NCBI GenBank assembly: GCA_965204745.1
Contig: OZ242010.1
Location: 2,400,001-2,464,000, forward strand
Source of the DNA: Candidatus Latescibacterota bacterium
Lineage (GTDB): Bacteria > Latescibacterota > UBA2968
Length of the DNA stretch: 64,000 nucleotides
Direction of reading: 5' to 3'
The notes under the pieces: model-generated
The model's database searches: none
What the model was told of the DNA's origin: nothing
The model's input: only the letters and a program-made list of their open reading frames with translations
Translations under genes and position numbers: made by a program
Part shown: positions 4,402 to 43,313 of the stretch, one piece after another
How positions within the stretch are numbered: position 1 is the stretch's first letter
Layout of the letters: each line of letters opens with the position of its first letter

Positions 4402-4771
4402 GGGGGCGACATGGATTCGACGGGGGTGGAGAGATGATGGCTGCGTGTCGAGGTGCCCAATCACCTCGTAAAACAATTGGGAAAAACGCAACTGCGGACG
4501 ATAACACGTACGCAATGGCTGCCTAACCAACCGTTACGCAGTCCGTTCTGTCAGACCTCGCCTGCGTGGTCTGGGTCAGGGCGCCGACGAGAGCAGGCTG
4601 GTTCGGGAGTTTCCGCTCGAGGACATCCGAACGAGACAAAATCGGGCTGGCATCTCAATGACCCTGTCTGTTGGGGCGCGGGATGCGAGATTTCAAATGA
4701 ATAGACTACACACGTAGATGCCGTTGTCAAACCGCTTTCGGACGCGGGTTCGATTCCCGCCGCCTCCACCA
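4402..4771 (+). ncRNA. ssrA: tmRNA; tag peptide ADDNTYAMAA* (4494-4526)
   Basis: 5' GGGGGCGACATGGATTCGAC, 3' GACGCGGGTTCGATTCCCGCCGCCTCCACCA, and an internal tag frame ending in AA-stop. Confidence 0.97.
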
Positions 4772-35353: not shown

Positions 35354-36178
35354 GTGAAACTCGCCGTGTGCAATGAATTTTTTGATGACTGGACAATTGA
35401 TCAGGTCTTTGACTACGCCGCGGAAATCGGCTGTGATGGCGTGGAAATCGCGCCCTTTACACTGGCCCCAAGCGTGACGGACATTTCGGCAAAACAGCGC
35501 GGGGACATTCGCAAAGCCGCAGAACGTGCAGGCGTGGAAATCGTCGGCCTCCACTGGTTGCTCGCCAGTCCGCCGGGGCTGTACCTCACGCACCCAGACG
35601 AAACGATCCGCAACAAGACAGAGGCGTACATCAAGGCGTTGATCAATTTCTGCGGGGACTTGGGCGGCCGGATCATGATCCACGGATCCCCCGCACAGCG
35701 AAATATCCAAGAAGGCTGGGATCGCCAAGCCTGCTGGCAATATGCCGTTGACGTATTTTCCAACTGCACCCGCGACATGGAGGCCAACGACGTCACCTAT
35801 TGCATCGAAGCCCTGACCGGCAACGAGACCAATATCTTAAACGCCATCTCCGAAGCCCTCCAGATGGTCGCAGATGTGGGCCATCCCAATTTCCAGACGA
35901 TGGTGGATACCAAAGCCGCCGCCGCCGAGAACAAGTCCCATGTGGATGTGATCGCCGAGGCGGGCAAGGCCATGCGCCACGTCCACGTCAACGATCCCAA
36001 CTTGCGCGGGCCGGGATTTGGCGATTTGCAATTCGCCTCCATCCTCCGCGCCCTCAAAGACCGGCACTACGACGGCTATGTCTCCGTCGAAGTCTTCAAC
36101 TTCAAACCGGATCCGCAAACCATTGCCGCCCGTAGCATCGGCTACCTCAGAGGCATCTTGGAAGGCCTGGAGAATTAA
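35354..36178 (+). CDS. Sugar phosphate isomerase/epimerase (xylose isomerase-like TIM barrel)
   Basis: GCDGVEIAP, IEAL...ETN, HVHVND...GPGFG, YVSVEVF; GTG start. Confidence 0.85.
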   Translation: MKLAVCNEFFDDWTIDQVFDYAAEIGCDGVEIAPFTLAPSVTDISAKQRGDIRKAAERAGVEIVGLHWLLASPPGLYLTHPDETIRNKTEAYIKALINFCGDLGGRIMIHGSPAQRNIQEGWDRQACWQYAVDVFSNCTRDMEANDVTYCIEALTGNETNILNAISEALQMVADVGHPNFQTMVDTKAAAAENKSHVDVIAEAGKAMRHVHVNDPNLRGPGFGDLQFASILRALKDRHYDGYVSVEVFNFKPDPQTIAARSIGYLRGILEGLEN

Positions 36179-36400
36179 CGGCCCGCAGGCGAGCACGAGG
36201 GCATCGCAAAAAGAAGTTGCTGCACAAAGGCGATGACTCGATTCATCGCCGCGAAGCCGGATGGCGCGCCTGGCTCGATTGGGGGCATCGCACGCTGAAG
36301 ATTTTCGATATTCGGGTCAATGTGTTGATCGACCCGCAATTTGAAACCGAGCATACCCATTGCCAAAGCCATGAGTTTTGTAATTTCAGCCGACGCAACA

Positions 36401-36937
36401 ACTCTGGCTACACTTCCATCAAAACAAGGATTGAAACAAATTTCGAGATACGCGAATCGTTTCGAGGCGGGAACTCTCGCTACACTTCCATCAAAACGAG
36501 GATTGACAAATGGGGAAAATAGCTTAGATTTTTTGGACATTATAGAGAGGTTGTGATGAGGACATTGAATCGACATTGCGATGGGTGATTGGGATTCAAT
36601 GCACGATGTTCATCGTGTTGGTAGGATTGATGCTACCGGTGCTCTGGGTGCTGTTGAAAGGGCGTGCGGGATAACCTTAAACAGAGGTAAGACAATGACA
36701 ACTGATGAAAAATTGATTGAACACGAGACGCGCATCTCTCGGATGGAGGGTATTATTGAGGAGATTCGCACGCGGCTTACAGGGATGGAGGCTGGTCAGC
36801 GCGAACTTGGCAGGAAAATCGACAGCGTGAAGCATACGATTTTGGTGGGGTTGCTGTTTATCACCGGCTTGTTGTCGAAGATGGCGTTCTTTGATTGATG
36901 CCTCTCGCTACACTTCCATCAAAACGAGGATTGAAAC
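36401..36937 (+). CRISPR. Orphan mini CRISPR array: 37-bp repeats at 36401-36437, 36473-36509 and 36901-36937
   Basis: Consensus (A/C)CTCTCGCTACACTTCCATCAAAAC(A/G)AGGATTGAAAC; one 35-bp spacer, then a 391-bp interval; no cas genes in the window. Confidence 0.75.
36695..36898 (+). CDS. Small coiled-coil protein with C-terminal TM helix (XhlA/DUF1640-like) between CRISPR repeats
   Basis: MTTDEKLIEHETRISRMEG...HTILVGLLFITGLLSKMAFFD; GAGG RBS; stop 2 bp before repeat 3. Confidence 0.65.
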   Translation: MTTDEKLIEHETRISRMEGIIEEIRTRLTGMEAGQRELGRKIDSVKHTILVGLLFITGLLSKMAFFD

Positions 36938-37176
36938 CCGACCGAGCGGCGATTCCAGCGGGCCGGTAGGTGGTCAACGACGGCTACGGTTCGTGCGGGA
37001 ATAGAATATAGCCAACAGCGAGGACGCTTCTGAATTTTAGCAGTCGTCTGACGCTGGGGCCGTCCCTTATTTGCAGGATATCCCTCCCGTCATTCCCGCG
37101 GCGCAACGCGACCCAAGGCGGGTTTTCAACCAACTTCTCTATTTGTTTAGATAAGTTACAAGGAGGGTTGAACGCG

Positions 37177-38349
37177 ATGCAAAAGATACCTTCGGCATAT
37201 CAGGTGGGATACGAAAAAGCGCACCTACGCAATCCAAGTCTCGCCGCAAAGTACATTGAACACACGCGCCTCAATGACCCGGTCGCTGATGCGGTCATTG
37301 AGTCGTTGGCTGAGTTCGAGCATGGACAGGTCCATCGCTTCATCAAGGCCGGCATGGAACAAAACGCGCCGATCCTCGCGGACGCGCCGCGGCTGTTGCG
37401 CGACTTTTTTGAAGAACTCGAAACGCCCCCGGCGTGGTTTGATCGGGACGCGGTTTTTCCGGGCCGCCAAGCCTTCCACGAGTACTCGGACTTGTTCATC
37501 CCCGCATTCTTTGTCGCCACCCTCCAAAACGCTTCCACTTTGATCAGCAAGGCGTTTTATACGACGGGCCGGGTATTGAGCGGTTTCGGGGCCAGGCGAA
37601 TCCGGCAAAACACCCGGCACTTCATCGAGATTATGCTCCCGGGATCCTTAGAACGGCAGTCAGATGGCTGGAAGCAATCGGTCCGCATCCGGCTAGTCCA
37701 CGCACAGGTCAGGCGGTTGATTCGTTCCTCGGGCAACTGGGACGAGTCGGTCTATGGAGTGCCCCTCAGCGCCGCGCATCTCGCGCTCGCGTCGGCCAAC
37801 TTTTCCGCGACGATACTGAAGCATGTACAGACGCTCGGGGCGCAACTAGACGATGCCGCTCGCAACGGTTTCATGCAGATCTGGTGCTATGCTTCAACGC
37901 TGATCGGTACGCCCGAGGCCCTCCTATTCGATGGAGACGAGGCCAAAACCAAGGCGCTGTCCCAACTCGCGCACCTCTGCGAACCGTCGCCTGGCGATGA
38001 ATCGGTTGCAATCGCGAATGCGCTGGTCAAAGCCCTGCCCGATATCGCCAGAAAGACCGATCCTGGCGACCGACAATCCATGGTGGATCATACGTACCGG
38101 GTCTCGCGCGCGCTCCTCGGCGACGAACTCGCCGATCAACTTTCGTTTCCCCGGCAATCGGCGGCGGGACTGCTGACGTGGATGCGGTTGCAACGCCGTG
38201 CCCACAGGATCTCCCACCGCATGGCACCGGGCGTCGCCCAAAAGTGGCGCGGGAAGAACTTCGTCTTTCTGCTCAAAGCGTCGATGCTCGATGATCTCAG
38301 CTACCGGATCCCGGATCACTTGAAGGCAGACGAGGCGACTCCGTGGTGA
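37177..38349 (+). CDS. Oxygenase MpaB / latex-clearing-protein-like (DUF2236) family
   Basis: DPVADAV, PAWFD, GWKQSVRIRLVHAQVRR, WD...GVPLS; AGGAGG RBS. Confidence 0.8.
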   Translation: MQKIPSAYQVGYEKAHLRNPSLAAKYIEHTRLNDPVADAVIESLAEFEHGQVHRFIKAGMEQNAPILADAPRLLRDFFEELETPPAWFDRDAVFPGRQAFHEYSDLFIPAFFVATLQNASTLISKAFYTTGRVLSGFGARRIRQNTRHFIEIMLPGSLERQSDGWKQSVRIRLVHAQVRRLIRSSGNWDESVYGVPLSAAHLALASANFSATILKHVQTLGAQLDDAARNGFMQIWCYASTLIGTPEALLFDGDEAKTKALSQLAHLCEPSPGDESVAIANALVKALPDIARKTDPGDRQSMVDHTYRVSRALLGDELADQLSFPRQSAAGLLTWMRLQRRAHRISHRMAPGVAQKWRGKNFVFLLKASMLDDLSYRIPDHLKADEATPW

Positions 38350-38436
38350 CCTCTCCGACCATCCCCCCGGTTTAGCCACGAGCGGGGTACAACTGGCGAT
38401 AGCCACAAAAGGCACAAAAGGCACAAAAAGGGCCCC

Positions 38437-39474
38437 GTGGTGACCTCTCCCATCCCTCCCATCTTTGTACTGAGCACAGGGCGGTGCGGCTCGACGATGG
38501 TGTCGAACATCCTAAACCATCATCCGCGCGTGCTCAGCCTCTCCGAACTCATCAGCTATATCGGGATACGCTCGTTCAGCCGTCGTCGGACCACTGGCGA
38601 TTGGATGTGGGAACGCTATAGCCGGCAACAGCCGCGAACCCGTCTCATGTTGCAGGGGCGGTACGAGGAACTGCTTTACCCGCTCGACGATCCCAACAGC
38701 CGTTTCACGCAGGACGACGTGCCGCCTATTCTGTGTGCCACGCTCCCACACCTCACCGAACGGTACGAGGACTTGTTCGATGCGCTCGAGCCGATGGTGC
38801 GGGGCCAGCCGAGACAGTCGCCGGCCGACCACCTCCGGCATTTTATCGCGTGGTTGTGCCAACGGTACGGTTGCTGCACTTGGGCCGAACGCTCGGGCGG
38901 GTCCCTTCTTTTCGCTTCTAGATTGCTACACGAGTTTCCCGAGGCGCGGGTGATCCACGTGTACCGCGATGGACGGGAAACGGCCATCTCGATGAGTCGG
39001 CACTACCTCTTTCGCCTGATCGCCGCGACCATGCTGGCACTTCGATCCTTTGGATTCGATGCGATGAAATCGCTCGCTCGGGGAAGGCACTGGGAGCGAC
39101 TCAGCTCGCGCTTGGAGCCGTTGACGAGATTGTTGCTGAACCCCGCAAAGCTGCCCTACGACGAGCTGACACTCCGCGATTTCGGGGTTCTCTGGAGCGC
39201 GATGATCGAGCGGGGAGACCGCATGCTCAGCCGCTTGCCATCAGGCCACCTGCTAAATGTCAAGTTCGAGGCCATACAGGCGGATCCGGACCGCGAGATC
39301 CGGCGTCTCATTCGATTCATCGATCCATCGCTGGAAGATGAGGCATGGCTGGGCGCGGCGCGCTCAATCCCGCGACAAACGACGTCCAAGTTCGCGCAAC
39401 TTACCGCTGGCGATCAGGCCGCGCTCTCCGCAACGTGCCGCCCTGGGCTTGAACGCCTGGGATATCCGCTCTGA
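38437..39474 (+). CDS. Sulfotransferase family protein
   Basis: PAPS-binding loop FVLSTGRCGST, FPEARVIHVYRDGRETAIS, LERLGY. Confidence 0.85.
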   Translation: MVTSPIPPIFVLSTGRCGSTMVSNILNHHPRVLSLSELISYIGIRSFSRRRTTGDWMWERYSRQQPRTRLMLQGRYEELLYPLDDPNSRFTQDDVPPILCATLPHLTERYEDLFDALEPMVRGQPRQSPADHLRHFIAWLCQRYGCCTWAERSGGSLLFASRLLHEFPEARVIHVYRDGRETAISMSRHYLFRLIAATMLALRSFGFDAMKSLARGRHWERLSSRLEPLTRLLLNPAKLPYDELTLRDFGVLWSAMIERGDRMLSRLPSGHLLNVKFEAIQADPDREIRRLIRFIDPSLEDEAWLGAARSIPRQTTSKFAQLTAGDQAALSATCRPGLERLGYPL

Positions 39475-39515
39475 GCCTACCTAAGTAGATTTATCATTGG
39501 GAATAAGGTACATCA

Positions 39516-40118
39516 ATGCCGCGTAAAAATAGGTTTCTCAACATCGGCGACCCGGCCCCCTTATTCACGCTTCCCTCGCATCAGCAACGAGACGTGTCGC
39601 TGGCGTCACATCGAGGGAAAGACCGCGTCATCCTGACGTTTTTTCGGGGAACTTGGTGAAGGAGAAGCCGTCGTCAGTTGGCGACCGTGCAAGAACACCT
39701 TGACGCGTACACCCAACGCAACGCGACGTCTATTGCCATCGCCGCCGGGCAACAGGTCCGCGAACTGCGCGAATACGCCGAACGCAACGGCATCACCTAT
39801 CCGCTTCTGTTGGACGCAGACCAGAGCGTAATCAAAAGCTACGGGGTATATCACTATTTCGGCCTAGCGGGTCACAATTTCGCGTACAACATTTTTCGCC
39901 CGGCGACGTTCATCGCCGACAAACTCGGCTATCCGTTGTACAACTATATCGGCTTGGCGGATCGCAACCTCCGCAACACCATTGCCCGTCCCGCGACGTT
40001 TATCATCGATGAACTCGGCATGGTCCGGTATATGTATATCGGATCGAATCAGTTTGATTTGGCCGAACAGGAAGAAGTTCTCGCACACTTAAAATCGCTG
40101 AAGAGTGAGATCCAGTAA
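39516..40118 (+). CDS. AhpC/TSA (peroxiredoxin-like) selenoprotein with in-frame UGA at codon 48
   Basis: IGDPAPLFTL...VILTFFRGTW-TGA(39657-39659)-RRS continues in frame into track ORF 39678-40118 (YPLLLD, RPATFIID); hairpin GTCGTC-AGTT-GGCGAC 10 nt after the UGA. Confidence 0.8.
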
Positions 40119-40186
40119 GAGACTTCGTCGCCGCCTCGAATATCATCCAGATGCACTGAACAACCCGGCACCGTCGAGCAGGAAAA

Positions 40187-40228
40187 TCTCTCTCTACACG
40201 TCCATCAGTGAGAGGAGCGGATTGAAAC
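40187..40228 (+). repeat. Degenerate CRISPR repeat copy 4
   Basis: TCTCTCTCTACACGTCCATCA-gtgagaggagc-GGATTGAAAC matches both ends of the 37-bp repeat. Confidence 0.6.
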
Positions 40229-40278
40229 GCAAAAAGAAAAGGGTTGTGCTCGGCAGGCGATCTGTGTAAATTTTGCCT

Positions 40279-40390
40279 GCCCTTACAATGCAATGTAGAT
40301 CTCAATTTGGTAGAGTGGCTCGCCGAGGCAACTCGGTCAGCGGGTTGCGGGTTCGAGTCCCGTCATTGCGTTGTGGGGGCTATTTTTTTT
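40279..40390 (+). ncRNA. tRNA-like small RNA lacking anticodon and CCA
   Basis: 17-bp closing stem (40279-40295/40364-40380), D-like arm CTC-AATTTGGTA-GAG, CCGAG-GCAA-CTCGG, T arm GCGGG-TTCGAGT-CCCGT, T run; promoter TTGTGC-17-TAAATT (40244-40272). Confidence 0.7.
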
Positions 40391-40452
40391 TCCACTTCTA
40401 ACAAGGATTGAATGGCTTAGGTTTTTGGACATTAGCAACATTGAATCGACAT
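40390..40452 (+). repeat. Partial CRISPR repeat copy 5 plus a deleted copy of the sequence that follows repeat 2
   Basis: TTCCActtctAACAAGGATTGAA, then GCTTAG.TTTTTGGACATTA...ACATTGAATCGACAT, which matches 36522-36576. Confidence 0.6.
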
Positions 40453-40517
40453 AACGTAGATATGAACACATCGTTGACGCAGGCGTTTCGCCTAAATGCA
40501 ATGGCTGAACGACGCAG

Positions 40518-40557
40518 AGAAAAAGCCATCCCAAATTTATCGGGATGGCTTTTTTCT
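40518..40557. terminator. Bidirectional terminator
   Basis: AAAAAGCCATCCC-loop-GGGATGGCTTTTTT. Confidence 0.75.
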
Positions 40558-40761
40558 ATTCCATAACACCGCTTCCCTACCTTCTCGCCAACACCCGTGC
40601 GCGGGTTTGTGCAACGATGTCTTTTTGAGGCCCGGCGTTGGGGGCAGTTTTGCGATTGAGGAGTGCGAGGATATTTCTTTTGGAATGTACCATTTGTGCC
40701 TCTCCCTGCCCTGCATCCAAGTAGCCAGTAGTCAGTAAGTCAGTCCCCGCGCCCTAATCCC

Positions 40762-41655
40762 TCAAACCCTGCCAAATTCCAAAACGCTGTGGGCGATTCG
40801 CACCTCGAGGCCGATAGGCAGGACGCGGCGGGACTTGCCGTGGCCGTAGGGCAGGTCGCAATACACCGGGCAGGACACGCGCATAGCAAAATCCGCGAGC
40901 ACGTCTTCGAGTTGCCCCTCGGATTCGCACTCGGGTTCGCAACCCACAAATTCGCCGAACACCACGCCCGCGGCGCGATCAAATGCCCCGGCCATTGCCA
41001 GTTGATTCAGCATGCGATCTACGCGATAGGGCGGCTCATTCACGTCCTCCAGCGCGATCACCGCGCCTTCGCATTGCGGGAAAAACGCCGTGCCTGCCAG
41101 CGACACCATGAGCGATAAACACCCGCCGATCAGCGTGCCCGTGGCCTCGCCCTCGCGCAGGGCCGTCAAGGGGATGGGCGCGAACCGATGCGAACACACC
41201 GCGTCCCACAACGCGCTTTCGGTCTCGGCATGGAGACCCTCTGTCGTCACATCCGAACACAGGGACAGCCCGGAAAACGTGACCAGTGCCGCACGGTCAT
41301 AGATACCCAACTGCAACGCCGTCGTATCGCTCAGGCCGACCAACGCCTTGGGGTTTTGCGCGATCAACGCCCAATCCAACAAGTCCAAAATGCGGGCCGC
41401 GCCATATCCGCCACGCGCCACAAAAATGCCCTTCACATCTGTATCCGCAAACATCGCATGCACATCGTCTGCCCGCGCCCGATCCGTTCCCGCCAGATAC
41501 CGATCTCGTGCGTAGAGCGACTCGCCCTCGCGCACGCGAAATCCCCGCTGTTGCAAATACGCCACTCCCGGCGTCAACCGCTCGCGCTCGAATGACCCGG
41601 ATGGCGCGATGATCCCGACTGTATCGCCGGGTTGTAATTTGGAGGGAAGAGTCAT
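40762..41655 (-). CDS. LD-carboxypeptidase (S66 family)
   Basis: LQPGDTVGIIAPS, RGGYGAARIL, GLSDTT, LEDVNEPPYRVDRML, YGHG. Confidence 0.92.
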   Translation of the reverse strand: MTLPSKLQPGDTVGIIAPSGSFERERLTPGVAYLQQRGFRVREGESLYARDRYLAGTDRARADDVHAMFADTDVKGIFVARGGYGAARILDLLDWALIAQNPKALVGLSDTTALQLGIYDRAALVTFSGLSLCSDVTTEGLHAETESALWDAVCSHRFAPIPLTALREGEATGTLIGGCLSLMVSLAGTAFFPQCEGAVIALEDVNEPPYRVDRMLNQLAMAGAFDRAAGVVFGEFVGCEPECESEGQLEDVLADFAMRVSCPVYCDLPYGHGKSRRVLPIGLEVRIAHSVLEFGRV

Positions 41656-41693
41656 AGTGGTCAGTGGCGTCGTTGCATAAATGGCGATAGCCT

Positions 41694-41992
41694 GCTGTTT
41701 GGGGTAGCAAAAAGACAGGCTCCTTCGCAGATTGGGCATATTTGTCACCGCCACAACACCCTTTCTCACAAGGAACCTGTCATGGCTAAGATAGCCTCTT
41801 CCAAGACCTCCGTCAATGCCCCTCGTCGCCGGTGCTGTGAGACTTGTCTATCGGGTGCGGAACTAGGCGGCTTACGAGGCTGGCCTCAAGTAGCGGGGCA
41901 GTCTGACGTTTTGGATCACGCCTCGAGCCCTTCGGGGCTGGTACTTTCAAGGGCCGACGCAACGGGGGCGCAAACTTGGCGATCCAAACAGC
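41694..41992 (+). mobile_element. Putative MITE / internally deleted IS remnant
   Basis: Imperfect terminal inverted repeats GCTGTTTGG...CCAAACAGC; hairpin GACAGGCTCCTT...AAGGAACCTGTC directly before an ATG; no transposase and no clear target duplication. Confidence 0.4.
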
Positions 41993-42029
41993 GGTGATGG
42001 TGTGTTTGTTCTATCCCTTGCCCCTGCGC

Positions 42030-42068
42030 CAAGATGAAGATAGCGATGGATTTGCCGATGGTGTGCAT
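42030..42068 (-). pseudogene. Truncated N-terminus (MHTIGKSIAIFI) of the array paralogue family
   Basis: Same RBS, leader and first 12 codons as the array genes, then loss of similarity. Confidence 0.7.
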
Positions 42069-42227
42069 GGGGTTCTCCTCTCTATGAGATCCATGTGCCG
42101 GTTAGAAACTGTTTTAATTTTTTCAAGACCTACCTTCGCGCCGCTCATTGTAGGCTACGCCTGGAACAAAAAAGAAGGTCTCCCCTCCCCGTTTCGGGGA
42201 GGGGCCGGGGGAGGGGTCCTATTCCTT

Positions 42228-43313
42228 TCAAAAATTGACCGTGAGCGCGGCGCGAAGCCCTTTGTCTCGCGTGGGCGCGATGCTCAGGTTGAGGCGTTGC
42301 GGCGATACCTCAACCCATTTCTCGGATTTTATTGTAGCACCCATGAGAGTCGAGAGAACCACTATGGATGGGAATATATACACCGCTGTCACGAATGTAG
42401 CAAGGCCACGCCAGTCGTTGTCCTCATCGTTCAAATCTACCAGCGCGATTGGAACGAGGATAATAAGTCCAAGCCCAAGCCCAATCTTAAAGCCTTTGCC
42501 CGTGTTTCGATGCTGTCCAATGCTGACTTCAAAGTTGGAGATTGAAGACATGGGGACTTGATAAAATGTGTGTCCACCTTGGATAACGACCGTGTCTCGA
42601 TTCATTTTTATGACCTCGCCAACGATCCGACTTTTTGAAAGTGAAGGGGCTTTGAAACGCACTTTGGCATTGAACAGGGTCTGTCTTGCATTTTTCCACC
42701 ACCGATCAATGTCTCGCTTGTGTTTAGCAACAACAAGTGTGTCAATGTCGCTGTATGCTATCCATCTTTCCCAGTTTTGCTTTTTGATTGCGATGCGGTT
42801 TGCGCCTTTACCGACAATCCACCCGGTTACGGTTTCTTTCGTCCTTTCTGGTGTATAGACGACATGGGCATACCATCCTTTTCTTATTTTTTTTAGATCA
42901 ATCTGCTCGCGTGTCATGACCGTGGGGAACTGTTGGTTGAACCGTTGGATGGCTTGTGCTTTATTCCGAATAACCCGATTCACCTCGTTCATCTGCGTCG
43001 CGGGCACGCTGGATTCTTCGCTCATGATTATGGATAGAACTTTGGCATAAGCGATAGTCGTCTTGCTCTTGAGTCCGCCGCTGCGAATGGTGAACGATGT
43101 CTCGCCTATCGCATCGATCCAGCCCCTCGCCATTCTTTCTCGGTCATTGCCATCGCGATAGGTGACAGCGATGTACGCATCTCGAACCAGCGCGTTGGCA
43201 TTGACCTGATCGCCTTGCAAGTGCTTGGCGGCATGTGCGAGCATGGGGGCCATCGCATTGAGCACGAGGGTCGCGGTGACAAAGATGGCGATGGATTTGG
43301 TGATGGTGTGCAT
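42228..43313 (-). CDS. Array paralogue 1: exported modular protein, type I C-terminus
   Basis: Signal MHTITKSIAIF...; ends LNLSIAPTRDKGLRAALTVNF. Confidence 0.8.
   Translation of the reverse strand: MHTITKSIAIFVTATLVLNAMAPMLAHAAKHLQGDQVNANALVRDAYIAVTYRDGNDRERMARGWIDAIGETSFTIRSGGLKSKTTIAYAKVLSIIMSEESSVPATQMNEVNRVIRNKAQAIQRFNQQFPTVMTREQIDLKKIRKGWYAHVVYTPERTKETVTGWIVGKGANRIAIKKQNWERWIAYSDIDTLVVAKHKRDIDRWWKNARQTLFNAKVRFKAPSLSKSRIVGEVIKMNRDTVVIQGGHTFYQVPMSSISNFEVSIGQHRNTGKGFKIGLGLGLIILVPIALVDLNDEDNDWRGLATFVTAVYIFPSIVVLSTLMGATIKSEKWVEVSPQRLNLSIAPTRDKGLRAALTVNF

What the first reader, a model, noticed from the sequence alone, without database searches (positions are those of the whole stretch)
36401..40452. 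CRISPR-like repeats that delimit whole genes and an RNA gene, not just spacers
Seen: five copies of a repeat with the ATTGAAAC-type end: R1 36401, R2 36473, R3 36901, degenerate R4 40187 and partial R5 ~40390. R1-R2 holds a normal 35-bp spacer. R2-R3 (391 bp) holds a small TM-protein gene that stops 2 bp before R3. R3-R4 (~3.25 kb) holds oxygenase, sulfotransferase and selenoprotein genes. R4-R5 (~160 bp) holds a promoter plus a tRNA mimic. All cargo is co-oriented with the repeats. Known: ATTGAAAC is the 8-nt 5' handle left by Cas6 in type I/III systems. Inference: the repeats may act as cassette integration/recombination sites or as Cas6 processing sites that punctuate a transcript. Simple decay of an array hit by insertions is the null explanation.
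Basis: partly seen in the sequence, partly recalled or inferred. Interest (0 to 1): 0.85.

Follow-up and report, generated by a model that had tools for sequence, protein, structure and literature searches.

The report
Eroded CRISPR array with tRNA-like gene
This is the worn-out far end of a CRISPR array that has lost its own cas genes and been broken up by rearrangements, but one piece of its 'cargo', a small tRNA-like RNA gene lodged between the last repeats, recurs in related species and seems to be undescribed.

Summary
R1-R3 are real type I-B repeats: 3 matches, none in 100 shuffles, none elsewhere in the 5.48-Mb genome. R4 is a 43-nt hybrid, I-B-like at its 5' end and I-C-like at its 3' end. 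R5 alone is chance-level, but it sits where relatives have a decayed terminal repeat.

In relatives (Latescibacterota) the same repeat forms arrays of 20-142 copies beside the LD-carboxypeptidase gene, with a cas6b operon. This genome has no cas6b. Its pseudo-leader is a copied gene fragment, its trailer is duplicated, and the sulfotransferase cargo has no orthologue in 40 relatives. Relatives' arrays are interrupted by IS and MITE elements.

Two features go beyond it:
- The R4-R5 interval holds a structured, tRNA-Asp-derived sRNA gene with no anticodon loop. Seven copies were found in 6 of 21 genomes of the genus. Six of the seven lie just after a CRISPR repeat, and three repeat kinds are involved.
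- XhlA-like small membrane-protein genes end 2-13 nt before an I-B-type repeat three times in this genome.

No RNA data exist. Earlier scan notes on other DNA describe similar things: a solitary repeat abutting a tRNA mimic in a phage, and a gene-sized spacer in a decayed array.

The parts
36199..36345 (+). Pseudo-leader: a 147-bp copy of an internal piece of a gene that lies at about 466.8 kb in the genome
   Evidence: 96.6% identity to G000:466945-466799. That place lies inside a long open reading frame. Homology with relatives stops at the stop codon of the upstream TIM-barrel gene, 36178-36180, in 3 of 3 relatives examined.
36401..36437 (+). R1, a type I-B (Cas6b-type) CRISPR repeat
   Evidence: nhmmer E = 2.7e-10; Rfam CRISPR-DR7 24.3 bits, below the gathering score of 37
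36438..36472 (+). S1, the only spacer of normal length (35 nt)
   Evidence: no match in the phage collection
36473..36509 (+). R2, a repeat with a changed 3' end (ATTGACAA). The change creates a TTGACA -35-like hexamer
   Evidence: promoter-like site 36503-36530, TTGACA-16-TAGATT, 10 of 12 matches. That scan found no more sites than in shuffles.
36510..36576 (+). Trailer-like sequence, paralogous to the sequence after R5
   Evidence: An exact 15-mer is shared by 36562-36576 and 40438-40452 (family D20). A block of about 21 nt just before it is also shared.
36573..36674 (+). 3' fragment (C-terminal membrane helix plus stop) of an XhlA-like small gene, 'family 1'
   Evidence: tblastn of the family-1 protein: 73% identity over 26 aa at 36558-36635; DNA match 36573-36621 to three other loci
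36695..36898 (+). Small tail-anchored coiled-coil protein gene (67 aa, 'family 2', XhlA-like). Its stop lies 2 nt before R3
   Evidence: 8 paralogous places in the genome, 32-58% identity; phrog_1193 'hemolysin', E = 0.0023; Pfam XhlA E = 0.079, below cut-off
36901..36937 (+). R3, a type I-B repeat (the consensus copy)
37168..38349 (+). MpaB/Lcp-type oxygenase gene
   Evidence: Pfam PF09995, E = 3.5e-19; a 29%-identical paralogue lies at 5.073 Mb next to a sulfotransferase paralogue
38437..39474 (+). Sulfotransferase gene
   Evidence: Pfam PF13469, E = 9e-21. No orthologue in 40 relatives; only 39-40%-identical paralogues in 2 of them.
39516..40118 (+). AhpC/TSA peroxiredoxin-like selenoprotein gene (TGA at 39657-39659)
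   Evidence: Pfam PF00578, E = 1.2e-25 when TGA is read as U. TGA is kept at the same codon in 6 of 6 homologues. A hairpin starts 13 nt after the TGA. tRNA-SeC is predicted in the genome.
40186..40228 (+). R4, a 43-nt hybrid repeat (I-B-like 5' part, I-C-like 3' part)
   Evidence: In G016 the same position holds an I-C-type repeat, a 34-nt spacer and an I-B repeat. The hairpin is weak: -10.8 kcal/mol, matched or beaten by 53 of 200 shuffles.
40244..40272 (+). Inferred promoter of the sRNA (TTGTGC, 17 nt, TAAATT)
   Evidence: By eye. TTG is invariant, and a TA-rich hexamer lies at the same distance in 7 aligned copies. The tool's consensus scan did not call it.
40279..40391 (+). tRNA-Asp-derived sRNA gene: a 17-bp closing stem, D-arm, variable hairpin in place of the anticodon arm, T-arm, then a run of 9 T
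   Evidence: Rfam tRNA 25.7 bits (gathering score 29) at 40289-40371; not called by ARAGORN; MFE -51.7 kcal/mol, z = -4.7; 93% of cells paired and 15 pairs with changes on both sides across 5 species; model R1 scores 130.9 bits; arms closest to tRNA-Asp(GTC)
40390..40412 (+). R5, decayed terminal repeat
   Evidence: Chance-level alone. Homologous by position to decayed repeats after the same RNA in G016, G002, G014, G020 and G018.
40413..40452 (+). Trailer, paralogous to 36510-36576
40520..40572 (.). Hairpin with T-runs, shared with G016; probably the terminator of the convergent LD-carboxypeptidase gene
   Evidence: 81% identity to L023:7422-7474; sequence
40762..41769 (-). LD-carboxypeptidase gene, the conserved neighbour of the array end
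   Evidence: Pfam PF02016 and PF17676. It lies next to large arrays of the same repeat in G016 and G001, and a few kb from the sRNA in G002 and G020.

Best explanation
The stretch is the eroded leader-distal end of a type I-B (Cas6b-type) CRISPR locus. In this genus (sponge-associated Latescibacterota) that locus ends beside the LD-carboxypeptidase gene. This genome has lost the cas6b operon and nearly all of the array. What remains is three I-B repeats, one I-B/I-C hybrid repeat and a decayed terminal repeat, and the remnant has been rearranged away from its former neighbours.

The oxygenase, sulfotransferase and selenoprotein genes lie between repeats because ordinary insertion, deletion and duplication broke up a dead array. 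The repeats did not capture them. In this genome the repeats are most likely inert DNA relics.

The tRNA-like RNA is different. It is an old resident of the last repeat interval. It is a stand-alone small-RNA gene, probably derived from tRNA-Asp, with its own promoter. A long closing stem followed by a U-run would serve both as its terminator and, where an array survives, as the array's terminator. It is kept even where Cas6b and the array are gone, so its function is probably its own.

Shown: the repeats, the loss of cas6b, the scars, the RNA's structure and its distribution. Inferred: the promoter, the terminator role, the order of events and every statement about function.
For: Array identity.
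- The same repeat forms arrays of at least 20 copies in 10 of 20 other genomes of the genus.
- In G016 a cas6b-cas8b-cas7-cas5-cas3-cas1-cas4 operon precedes the array.
- The array ends at the LD-carboxypeptidase gene in G016 and G001.

Loss of the cognate system.
- tblastn with the G016 cas proteins finds only 22-26%-identical hits, to the genome's other systems.
- PF17262 (Cas6b) is absent from G000 and G018 and present in G016, G002 and G020.
- The genome's own systems are a complete I-C and a truncated I-B with a different 30-nt repeat.

Scars.
- Homology with 3 of 3 relatives ends at 36178-36180. Their next gene lies 600 kb away in G000.
- The 'leader' is a 96.6% copy of a gene fragment.
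- The terminal-repeat/trailer junction is present twice.
- R4 is a fusion of two repeat kinds.

Cargo.
- The sulfotransferase has no orthologue in 40 relatives.
- Orthologues of the prx gene lie at other places in relatives.
- Cargo edges are 186, 230 and 68 nt away from repeat edges.
- Long intervals in relatives' arrays hold an IS630-like gene, a 3.7-kb element with about 130-bp inverted ends, and a MITE-like insert inside a repeat.

The RNA.
- 93% of cells are paired, against 37-47% when partners are slid. 15 of 34 pairs change on both sides; no shuffle of 500 reached this.
- There are seven places scoring at least 59 bits, in 6 genomes, all of one genus. This held among the 53 genomes of the order and in a sample of 151 genomes of the phylum.
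- An independent metagenome contig (run X3) bridges 39993-41699.
Against: - No RNA data exist, so 'inert' is an inference.
- All three CRISPR systems in play share the ATTGAAAC end. R4's last 21 nt differ by one base from the resident I-C repeat, so cross-processing cannot be excluded.
- A small XhlA-like gene ends 2-13 nt before an I-B-type repeat three times in this genome (window R3, and G000 near 3.2575 and 4.0117 Mb) and once in G016. A small membrane ORF also lies inside the live G020 array. Pure accident does not predict this.
- The RNA is flanked by repeats of three different kinds. A single old insertion explains five of the seven copies, but it does not easily explain the G018 copy between repeats of another family.
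- Synteny in this genus is poor, so the order of events cannot be reconstructed.
Confidence: 0.7

Rival explanations
1. The repeats still work at the RNA level. A resident enzyme cuts the co-oriented transcripts at the repeats. That enzyme could be the Cas6 of the truncated I-B locus for R1-R3, or Cas5d of the I-C system for R4. Cutting would separate the small-protein mRNA, the three-gene operon and the sRNA, and would set their 3' ends.
For: - All cargo is co-oriented with the repeats.
- R4's 3' 21 nt match the I-C repeat 20/21.
- The resident I-B repeat also ends in ATTGAAAC.
- Small genes end 2-13 nt before repeats in three places, and in the two solitary cases a terminator follows the repeat.
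Against: - The cognate Cas6b is absent.
- R1-type repeats are unstructured and share only the last 8-10 nt with the resident I-B repeat.
- R4's hairpin is no better than shuffles: 53 of 200 fold as well.
- R2 has lost the handle sequence.
- No RNA run is available.
Confidence: 0.12
2. The repeats act as recombination or integration sites that capture gene cassettes. The mechanism could be integron-like, exchange between arrays, or rare long inserts made by Cas1-Cas2.
For: Gene-sized or RNA-sized intervals between repeats occur in four other species. The sRNA unit has a similar size (about 160-215 nt) and geometry between repeats of different kinds.
Against: - The large inserts in relatives are self-mobile elements: an IS630-like gene, a TIR-flanked element and a MITE-like insert.
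- Cargo edges do not coincide with repeat edges, except for one stop codon.
- None of the 8 cargo and flanking proteins scanned is an integrase or recombinase.
- The cognate Cas1 is gone.
- The cargo has no orthologues in relatives, so gain or loss at repeat edges could not be seen.
Confidence: 0.06
3. The solitary repeats with small membrane-protein genes, and perhaps the tRNA-like RNA, are guard or regulatory modules of the CreTA, crRNA-like-RNA or Racr kind. A potentially toxic small protein or RNA would have its expression tied to Cas proteins through a repeat.
For: - The small proteins are XhlA/holin-like in architecture.
- The repeat is followed by a hairpin terminator of about 35 nt. 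After Cas6 cleavage this would give a crRNA-like RNA with an 8-nt handle.
- The module is kept in G016, which has Cas6b.
- In G016 a two-repeat mini-array lies directly upstream of the sRNA promoter.
- Such mini-arrays are widespread (passages read in 10.1101/2023.03.03.530964).
Against: - The sequence after the solitary repeat shows no complementarity to its own gene's upstream region beyond shuffles, in 3 of 3 modules tested.
- G000 keeps the modules without the cognate cas genes and is evidently viable.
- Only 2 of 4 close family-1 paralogues in G000 keep an intact repeat, and the G018 copies have none.
- The same complementarity test for the sRNA promoter was not run.
Confidence: 0.1

Closest known systems
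Orphan or degenerate CRISPR arrays left after loss of the cas operon (for example the cas-less I-F arrays of E. coli and the RliB array of Listeria; recalled, not read here)
   Same: Few repeats, no adjacent cas genes, a decayed terminal repeat, and no cognate processing enzyme in the genome.
   Different: Here the remnant is split by whole genes, one repeat is a fusion of two subtypes, and the trailer junction is duplicated.
Stand-alone repeat-like elements and mini-arrays (Shmakov et al., 10.1101/2023.03.03.530964, abstract and passages read), and CreTA (as described in that paper)
   Same: Solitary, partly degenerate repeats outside arrays that are conserved between related genomes. The paper attributes their origin to the recombinogenic nature of repeats.
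   Different: The described elements lie inside cas loci and carry a spacer partly complementary to a promoter. Here the solitary repeats lie far from any cas locus, in the 3' region of small membrane-protein genes, and no such complementarity was found.
Viral solitary repeat units / RNA anti-CRISPRs (Racrs; Camara-Wilpert et al. 2023, PMC10651486; search listing and start of abstract seen)
   Same: Single CRISPR repeats transcribed outside an array.
   Different: Racrs are encoded by phages and plasmids to inhibit the host system. I found no evidence that these loci are mobile or viral, beyond the XhlA-like flavour of the genes.
tRNA-like RNAs: the tRNA-like domain of tmRNA, bacterial YrlA (both recalled), and the engineered t-element-flanked icrRNA of the Haloferax I-B system (PMC4326828; abstract seen)
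   Same: A tRNA elbow (D-loop GG, T-loop TTCGA) and an acceptor-like stem without a decoding anticodon loop. The Haloferax work shows that tRNA-like flanks can replace Cas6b in crRNA maturation.
   Different: This is a natural, independently transcribed gene in the last repeat interval of arrays. Its closing stem is 17 bp and its middle arm is variable. No Rfam family other than tRNA matched it.
CRISPR arrays interrupted by insertion sequences (a general phenomenon; recalled)
   Same: In G016 an IS630-like gene and a TIR-flanked element split the array; in G014 a MITE-like element sits inside a repeat.
   Different: In the window no transposase or inverted ends flank the cargo.

Membership tests
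CRISPR array, type I-B (Cas6b-type) | Several near-identical direct repeats of about 36-37 nt ending in ATTGAAAC | tested here: met
   R1, R2 and R3 have 0-2 mismatches over 30 nt. They are 94% identical to the repeat of the G016 array.
CRISPR array, type I-B (Cas6b-type) | Unique spacers of about 30-40 nt between all repeats | tested here: not met
   Only 1 of 4 intervals is spacer-sized. The intervals are 35, 391, 3249 and about 160 nt.
CRISPR array, type I-B (Cas6b-type) | Cognate cas genes (cas6b and others) in the genome | tested here: not met
   PF17262 is absent from G000. tblastn with the G016 operon finds only 22-26%-identical hits, to the genome's other systems.
CRISPR array, type I-B (Cas6b-type) | Leader with a promoter upstream of the first repeat | tested here: not met
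   Upstream of R1 lies a 147-bp copy of a gene fragment. No promoter-like site was called upstream of R1, that is in 36100-36400.
tRNA | Cloverleaf with a 7-nt anticodon loop, recognised by tRNA finders | tested here: not met
   ARAGORN calls a tRNA at none of the 7 places. The anticodon arm is replaced by a hairpin of variable length with a 4-nt loop in G000.
tRNA | Rfam RF00005 gathering score (29 bits) | tested here: inconclusive
   G000 scores 25.7 bits. G018 scores 34.9 and G016 34.4 bits, both passing. The other copies are not among the rows shown.
tRNA | D-arm and T-arm with the elbow-forming loops | tested here: met
   The T-arm is invariant and the D-arm is paired in 5 of 5 sequences, with one compensatory change. 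The T-arm region matches tRNA-Asp(GTC) 21/22.
CreTA / crRNA-like regulatory mini-array | [quoted passage not shown] | tested here: not met
   For 3 of 3 small-gene modules (two in G000, one in G016) the best matches equal those of shuffled sequence. This was not tested for the sRNA promoter.
Integron-like cassette array | Site-specific recombinase at the locus, and cassettes bounded exactly by the repeats | tested here: not met
   None of the 8 proteins scanned is a recombinase. Three of four cargo edges lie 68-230 nt from a repeat.
Racr / viral solitary repeat unit | Carried by a phage, prophage or plasmid | not tested
   The surroundings of the solitary repeats near 3.2575 and 4.0117 Mb were not annotated beyond the small gene and its terminator.
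Bacterial selenoprotein (AhpC/TSA-like) | In-frame TGA at the redox-active position, conserved, with a downstream hairpin and Sec machinery | tested here: met
   TGA is kept in 6 of 6 homologues. A hairpin lies 13 nt downstream. tRNA-SeC is predicted. selA and selB were not searched.

The most novel reading that the evidence does not exclude
The tRNA-Asp-derived RNA is a dedicated accessory of CRISPR arrays. It would be an array-end module whose tRNA elbow and long stem-terminator recruit tRNA-processing enzymes or Cas proteins, either to finish or stabilise the pre-crRNA or to guard the locus. The XhlA-like small membrane-protein genes that carry a CRISPR repeat just after their stop codon would form a Cas6b-controlled set of potentially toxic genes. 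On this reading, repeats in this genus are reused as RNA handles outside immunity, and the window preserves the remains of such a circuit.
Probability: 0.2. Interest if true: 0.75.

Novelty: new variant of a known kind. Interest (0 to 1): 0.5.

Why it matters
For the main claim the result is sobering. Genes framed by CRISPR repeats can arise simply from the break-up of a dead array, and comparison with relatives shows this without any special mechanism.

Two by-products are worth a specialist's look. The first is a structured, genus-restricted tRNA-like small RNA that lives in the last repeat interval of arrays and outlives them. Three full-text searches found no description of such an RNA. 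The second is a recurrent pairing of small holin-like genes with a CRISPR repeat placed just after their stop codon.

If either is tied to Cas proteins, it would add a new kind of non-immune use of CRISPR repeats. Both can be tested directly with RNA end-mapping and Cas6b cleavage assays.

Tried and rejected
- No RNA holder was listed among the public runs, so expression could not be examined.
- The runs I laid are contigs that break at the repeats. They show neither repeat-to-repeat joints nor their absence. A joint 37844->39613, seen in all four runs at 90% likeness, was not followed up.
- A metagenome scan with the sulfotransferase gave 157 pattern matches, none a relative.
- A metagenome scan with the sRNA pattern gave one stretch, which ARAGORN calls tRNA-Leu and model R1 scores at 48.3 bits.
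- The genome-collection pattern scan found 93 stretches, of which 80 were listed. I gave 27 of the 80 to the model. Only the three Latescibacterota loci scored above 100 bits; the rest scored 46 or less.
- Spacer S1 has no match among 50,697 phage records.
- The cargo's G+C (0.59-0.615) is close to the genome's 0.565 and gives no clear sign of foreign origin.
- The small ORFs of G000 and G020 share no detectable similarity by BLASTP, so 'the same gene in both arrays' is rejected.
- Pfam matches of both small-protein families to XhlA are below the cut-off.
- A CreTA-like match of the post-repeat segment to its own promoter was not found.
- A look-up of earlier findings around this place returned nothing.
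- The supplements of the mini-array paper, which list its repeat-like elements, could not be consulted and might hold related cases.

Full report
WHAT IS THERE

The window is part of a complete 5.48-Mb single-contig genome. R1 (36401-36437), R2 (36473-36509) and R3 (36901-36937) are near-identical 37-nt direct repeats ending in ATTGAAAC; R2 ends in ATTGACAA instead. A 30-nt probe finds exactly these three at up to 3 mismatches. None of 100 shuffles gave even one match. The probe finds nothing else in the genome.

R4 is real but is not simply 'degenerate'. It spans 40186-40228 (43 nt). Its first 20 nt match the R1-type repeat 18/20. Its last 21 nt match the genome's own type I-C repeat 20/21. 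It is therefore a fusion of two repeat kinds.

R5 (40390-40412) scores 25 in a local alignment against the repeat. Four unrelated places in the window score 25-32, and nhmmer gives E = 5.2. Its standing comes only from relatives (see below).

THE GENES

Pfam confirms an MpaB/Lcp-type oxygenase, a sulfotransferase and an AhpC/TSA peroxiredoxin with an in-frame TGA. The TGA sits at the redox-active codon in 6 of 6 homologues compared, drawn from two families of the order. A hairpin begins 13 nt downstream, and tRNA-SeC is predicted in the genome. The selenoprotein call is sound.

The small ORF 36695-36898 encodes a 67-aa coiled-coil protein with a C-terminal membrane helix. Its stop lies 2 nt before R3.

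WHICH CRISPR SYSTEM

The genome has two cas loci, neither of which uses this repeat:
- A complete type I-C system (cas3, cas5d, csd1, cas7, cas4, cas1, cas2) with 192 repeats at 1.459-1.473 Mb.
- A truncated I-B locus (cas6, a cas8b-like gene, cas7, cas5, then a transposase) with about 11 copies of a different 30-nt repeat at 0.845 Mb.

In the relative G016 the R1-type repeat forms more than 140 copies directly downstream of a cas6b-cas8b-cas7-cas5-cas3-cas1-cas4 operon. Across the genus, arrays of at least 20 copies of this repeat family occur in 10 of 20 other genomes.

G000 has no orthologue of that operon. tblastn finds only 22-26%-identical hits, to its other systems. The Cas6b family PF17262 is absent from G000 and G018 and present in G016, G002 and G020.

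THE LOCUS IN RELATIVES

Homology with G018 (92%), G016 (88%) and G001 (83%) runs through the ABC ATPase and TIM-barrel genes and stops at the latter's stop codon, 36178-36180, in 3 of 3. The gene that follows in G018 and G016 lies 600 kb away in G000. Synteny in this genus is poor, and the genome is peppered with a repeat of about 260-290 bp.

The other flank, the LD-carboxypeptidase gene, lies beside a large R1-type array in G016 and G001. In G018 it does not. The window is therefore the leader-distal end of that ancestral locus.

The gene next to the G016 cas operon is a mechanosensitive-channel gene. Its 94%-identical counterpart in G000 sits next to the I-C operon. This suggests a swap of cas modules at the old site and a later rearrangement. 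I could not reconstruct the steps.

SCARS IN THE WINDOW

- The sequence upstream of R1 is no leader. Positions 36199-36345 are a 96.6% copy of an internal piece of a gene at 466.8 kb.
- The junction of terminal repeat and trailer is present twice, after R2 and after R5. The two copies share an exact 15-mer and a neighbouring block of about 21 nt in the same order.
- R4 is a fused repeat. G016 has at that spot an I-C-type repeat, a 34-nt spacer and an I-B repeat.
- The cargo edges lie 186, 230 and 68 nt from the repeats. Only the small ORF abuts one.
- The sulfotransferase has no orthologue in 40 relatives. Only 39-40%-identical paralogues were found, in 2 of them. A diverged oxygenase-sulfotransferase pair exists elsewhere in G000.
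- Orthologues of the prx gene lie at unrelated places in relatives.

In relatives the long intervals inside arrays hold an IS630-like gene, a 3.7-kb element with inverted ends of about 130 bp, and a MITE-like insert that splits a repeat. All of this fits decay plus ordinary insertion and rearrangement. None of it fits capture by the repeats.

A metagenome contig from an independent run bridges 39993-41699, which argues against misassembly of that part. The contigs break at R1-R3, so they say nothing about that part.

THE RNA GENE

Positions 40279-40391 fold into a 17-bp closing stem. On top of the stem sit a D-arm, a hairpin in place of the anticodon arm (GCAA loop in G000) and a T-arm. A run of nine T follows (-51.7 kcal/mol, z = -4.7).

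Rfam's tRNA model aligns it end to end at 25.7 bits, below the gathering score. The G018 and G016 copies pass, at 34.9 and 34.4 bits. ARAGORN calls a tRNA at none of the seven places. The arms are closest to tRNA-Asp(GTC), with the T-arm region matching 21/22.

Across five species, 93% of cells pair, against 37-47% when partners are slid. 15 of 34 pairs show changes on both sides, 10 of them in the closing stem. None of 500 shuffles reached these values. With only five related sequences this is strong for the stem. It is uninformative for the T-arm, which never varies.

A covariance model finds seven places scoring at least 59 bits, in six genomes of the one genus: G000, G016, G002, G020, G014, and G018 twice. 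The next hits, at 48.6 bits or less, have the span of ordinary tRNAs. Nothing comparable was found in a sample of 151 genomes of the phylum. Outside the phylum, the 27 of 80 pattern-matched loci that I scored reached 46 bits or less.

An invariant TTG, and a TA-rich hexamer about 17 nt further on, precede all seven copies at a fixed distance. I read this as a promoter, but the tool's consensus scan does not call it.

THE RNA'S SETTING

- In 6 of 7 copies a CRISPR repeat ends 44-76 nt upstream.
- In all 7 a more or less decayed repeat follows.
- Three kinds of repeat are involved: the I-B family (G016, G002, G020, G014), the hybrid R4 (G000), and in the second G018 copy an unrelated 36-nt repeat. 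That repeat forms arrays of 25-177 copies in G018, G016, G014 and G001.
- G014 has a second, weaker element (43.6 bits) in the next repeat interval.

Against a tight functional link:
- 6 of the 10 array-bearing relatives have no copy scoring at least 59 bits.
- G000 and G018 keep the RNA without Cas6b.

A single old insertion into the last unit of the ancestral array, inherited vertically, explains five copies. The other two need duplication into other repeat contexts.

SMALL MEMBRANE-PROTEIN GENES AND REPEATS

A profile of the repeat finds two more intact copies in G000, at 3257543-3257507 and 4011769-4011733 (30/37 identical to R3; E about 1e-10). Each lies about 12 nt after the stop of a 78-96-aa coiled-coil protein with a C-terminal membrane helix. 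Each is followed by a hairpin terminator.

A third paralogue has a decayed remnant of the repeat and a fourth has none. G016 has the same module with the repeat (34/37 identical). The G018 copies lack it.

The window itself holds a 3' fragment of this gene family at 36573-36674, just before the 67-aa ORF that abuts R3. Both protein families resemble phage XhlA only below threshold.

G020 has a 47-aa membrane ORF inside its live array, but it shows no similarity to the G000 ORF.

The segment after the solitary repeat shows no complementarity to its own promoter beyond shuffles, in 3 of 3 modules. A CreTA-like circuit is therefore not supported. The modules may simply be duplicates of a gene that once sat in an array, copied together with its neighbouring repeat.

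WHAT IS KNOWN

Stand-alone repeats and mini-arrays are widespread and are ascribed to the recombinogenic nature of repeats (10.1101/2023.03.03.530964; abstract and passages read). Solitary repeats of phages act as RNA anti-CRISPRs (PMC10651486; listing and start of abstract). Engineered tRNA-like flanks can replace Cas6b in Haloferax (PMC4326828; abstract).

Three full-text searches listed no paper describing a natural tRNA-like RNA gene in the terminal unit of an array. That is an absence in those searches only. I could not see supplements.

Earlier notes of this scan on other DNA report three related things: a solitary repeat abutting a tRNA mimic in a giant phage, a gene-sized 'spacer' in a decayed array, and tRNA-like separators in a phage guide-RNA system. 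I did not test these.

VERDICT

The headline idea, that repeats capture or punctuate whole genes, is not supported for the 3.25-kb cargo. That part is an ordinary eroded, orphaned array end. The tRNA-like RNA between the terminal repeats, and the repeat-tailed small membrane-protein genes, are real and recurrent. To my searches they are undescribed, and their function is open. No RNA evidence exists for any of it.

Noticed in passing
window 39516-40118: A peroxiredoxin-like selenoprotein. TGA at the redox-active codon is kept in 6 of 6 homologues from two families of the order, and a hairpin lies 13 nt downstream. The copies in family f2 are nearer (83%) than those in the same genus (77-79%).
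   Followed up: partly
window 36503-36530: The mutated end of R2 (ATTGACAA) creates a perfect TTGACA hexamer, with TAGATT 16 nt downstream. A decayed repeat may have been turned into a promoter for the small genes that follow.
   Followed up: no
G000 genome-wide, e.g. 1458197-1458473; seen with L018 as query: A repeat of about 260-290 bp with well over 100 copies at 72-90% identity is scattered through the genome (MITE-like). One copy lies just beyond the far end of the I-C array.
   Followed up: no
window 41656-42033 and 42223-42673: Two further repeated stretches. An element of about 380 bp has at least 5 other copies in the genome at 80-81%. The 5' part of the gene at 42228-43313 is repeated 4-5 times within the next 9 kb (77-94%).
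   Followed up: no
L023 3341-7080 (G016): A 3.7-kb insertion in the array is bounded by inverted ends of about 130 bp. An IS630-like two-ORF transposase gene at 1283-2445 splits the array further.
   Followed up: partly
L088 (G014), about 240-100 nt upstream of its sRNA: An AT-rich insert of about 140 bp splits one CRISPR repeat into two halves (MITE-like).
   Followed up: no
L087 about 2310-2440 (G018, 459.3 kb): The interval after the second G018 sRNA copy holds two copies of yet another 37-nt direct repeat separated by 36 nt. It looks like a two-repeat mini-array of a third kind.
   Followed up: no
L006 18660-18790, minus strand (G000 1.4587 Mb): The far end of the I-C array has a collapsed repeat (an internal deletion leaves 15 nt) and a terminal repeat with one change. 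A hairpin without a U-run follows. There is no tRNA-like RNA there.
   Followed up: no
G000 1907628-1907705, 2158630-2158727 and 4199619-4199714: ARAGORN predicts two tRNA-SeC genes and one tRNA with a four-base anticodon (cacg).
   Followed up: no
window 37844 and 39613: Contigs in all four runs laid join these two places, skipping 1768 nt, at 90% likeness with 40-51 nt on the shorter side. This may be another organism or a variant of the cargo block.
   Followed up: no
window 4402-4771: A tmRNA gene with tag ADDNTYAMAA.
   Followed up: no
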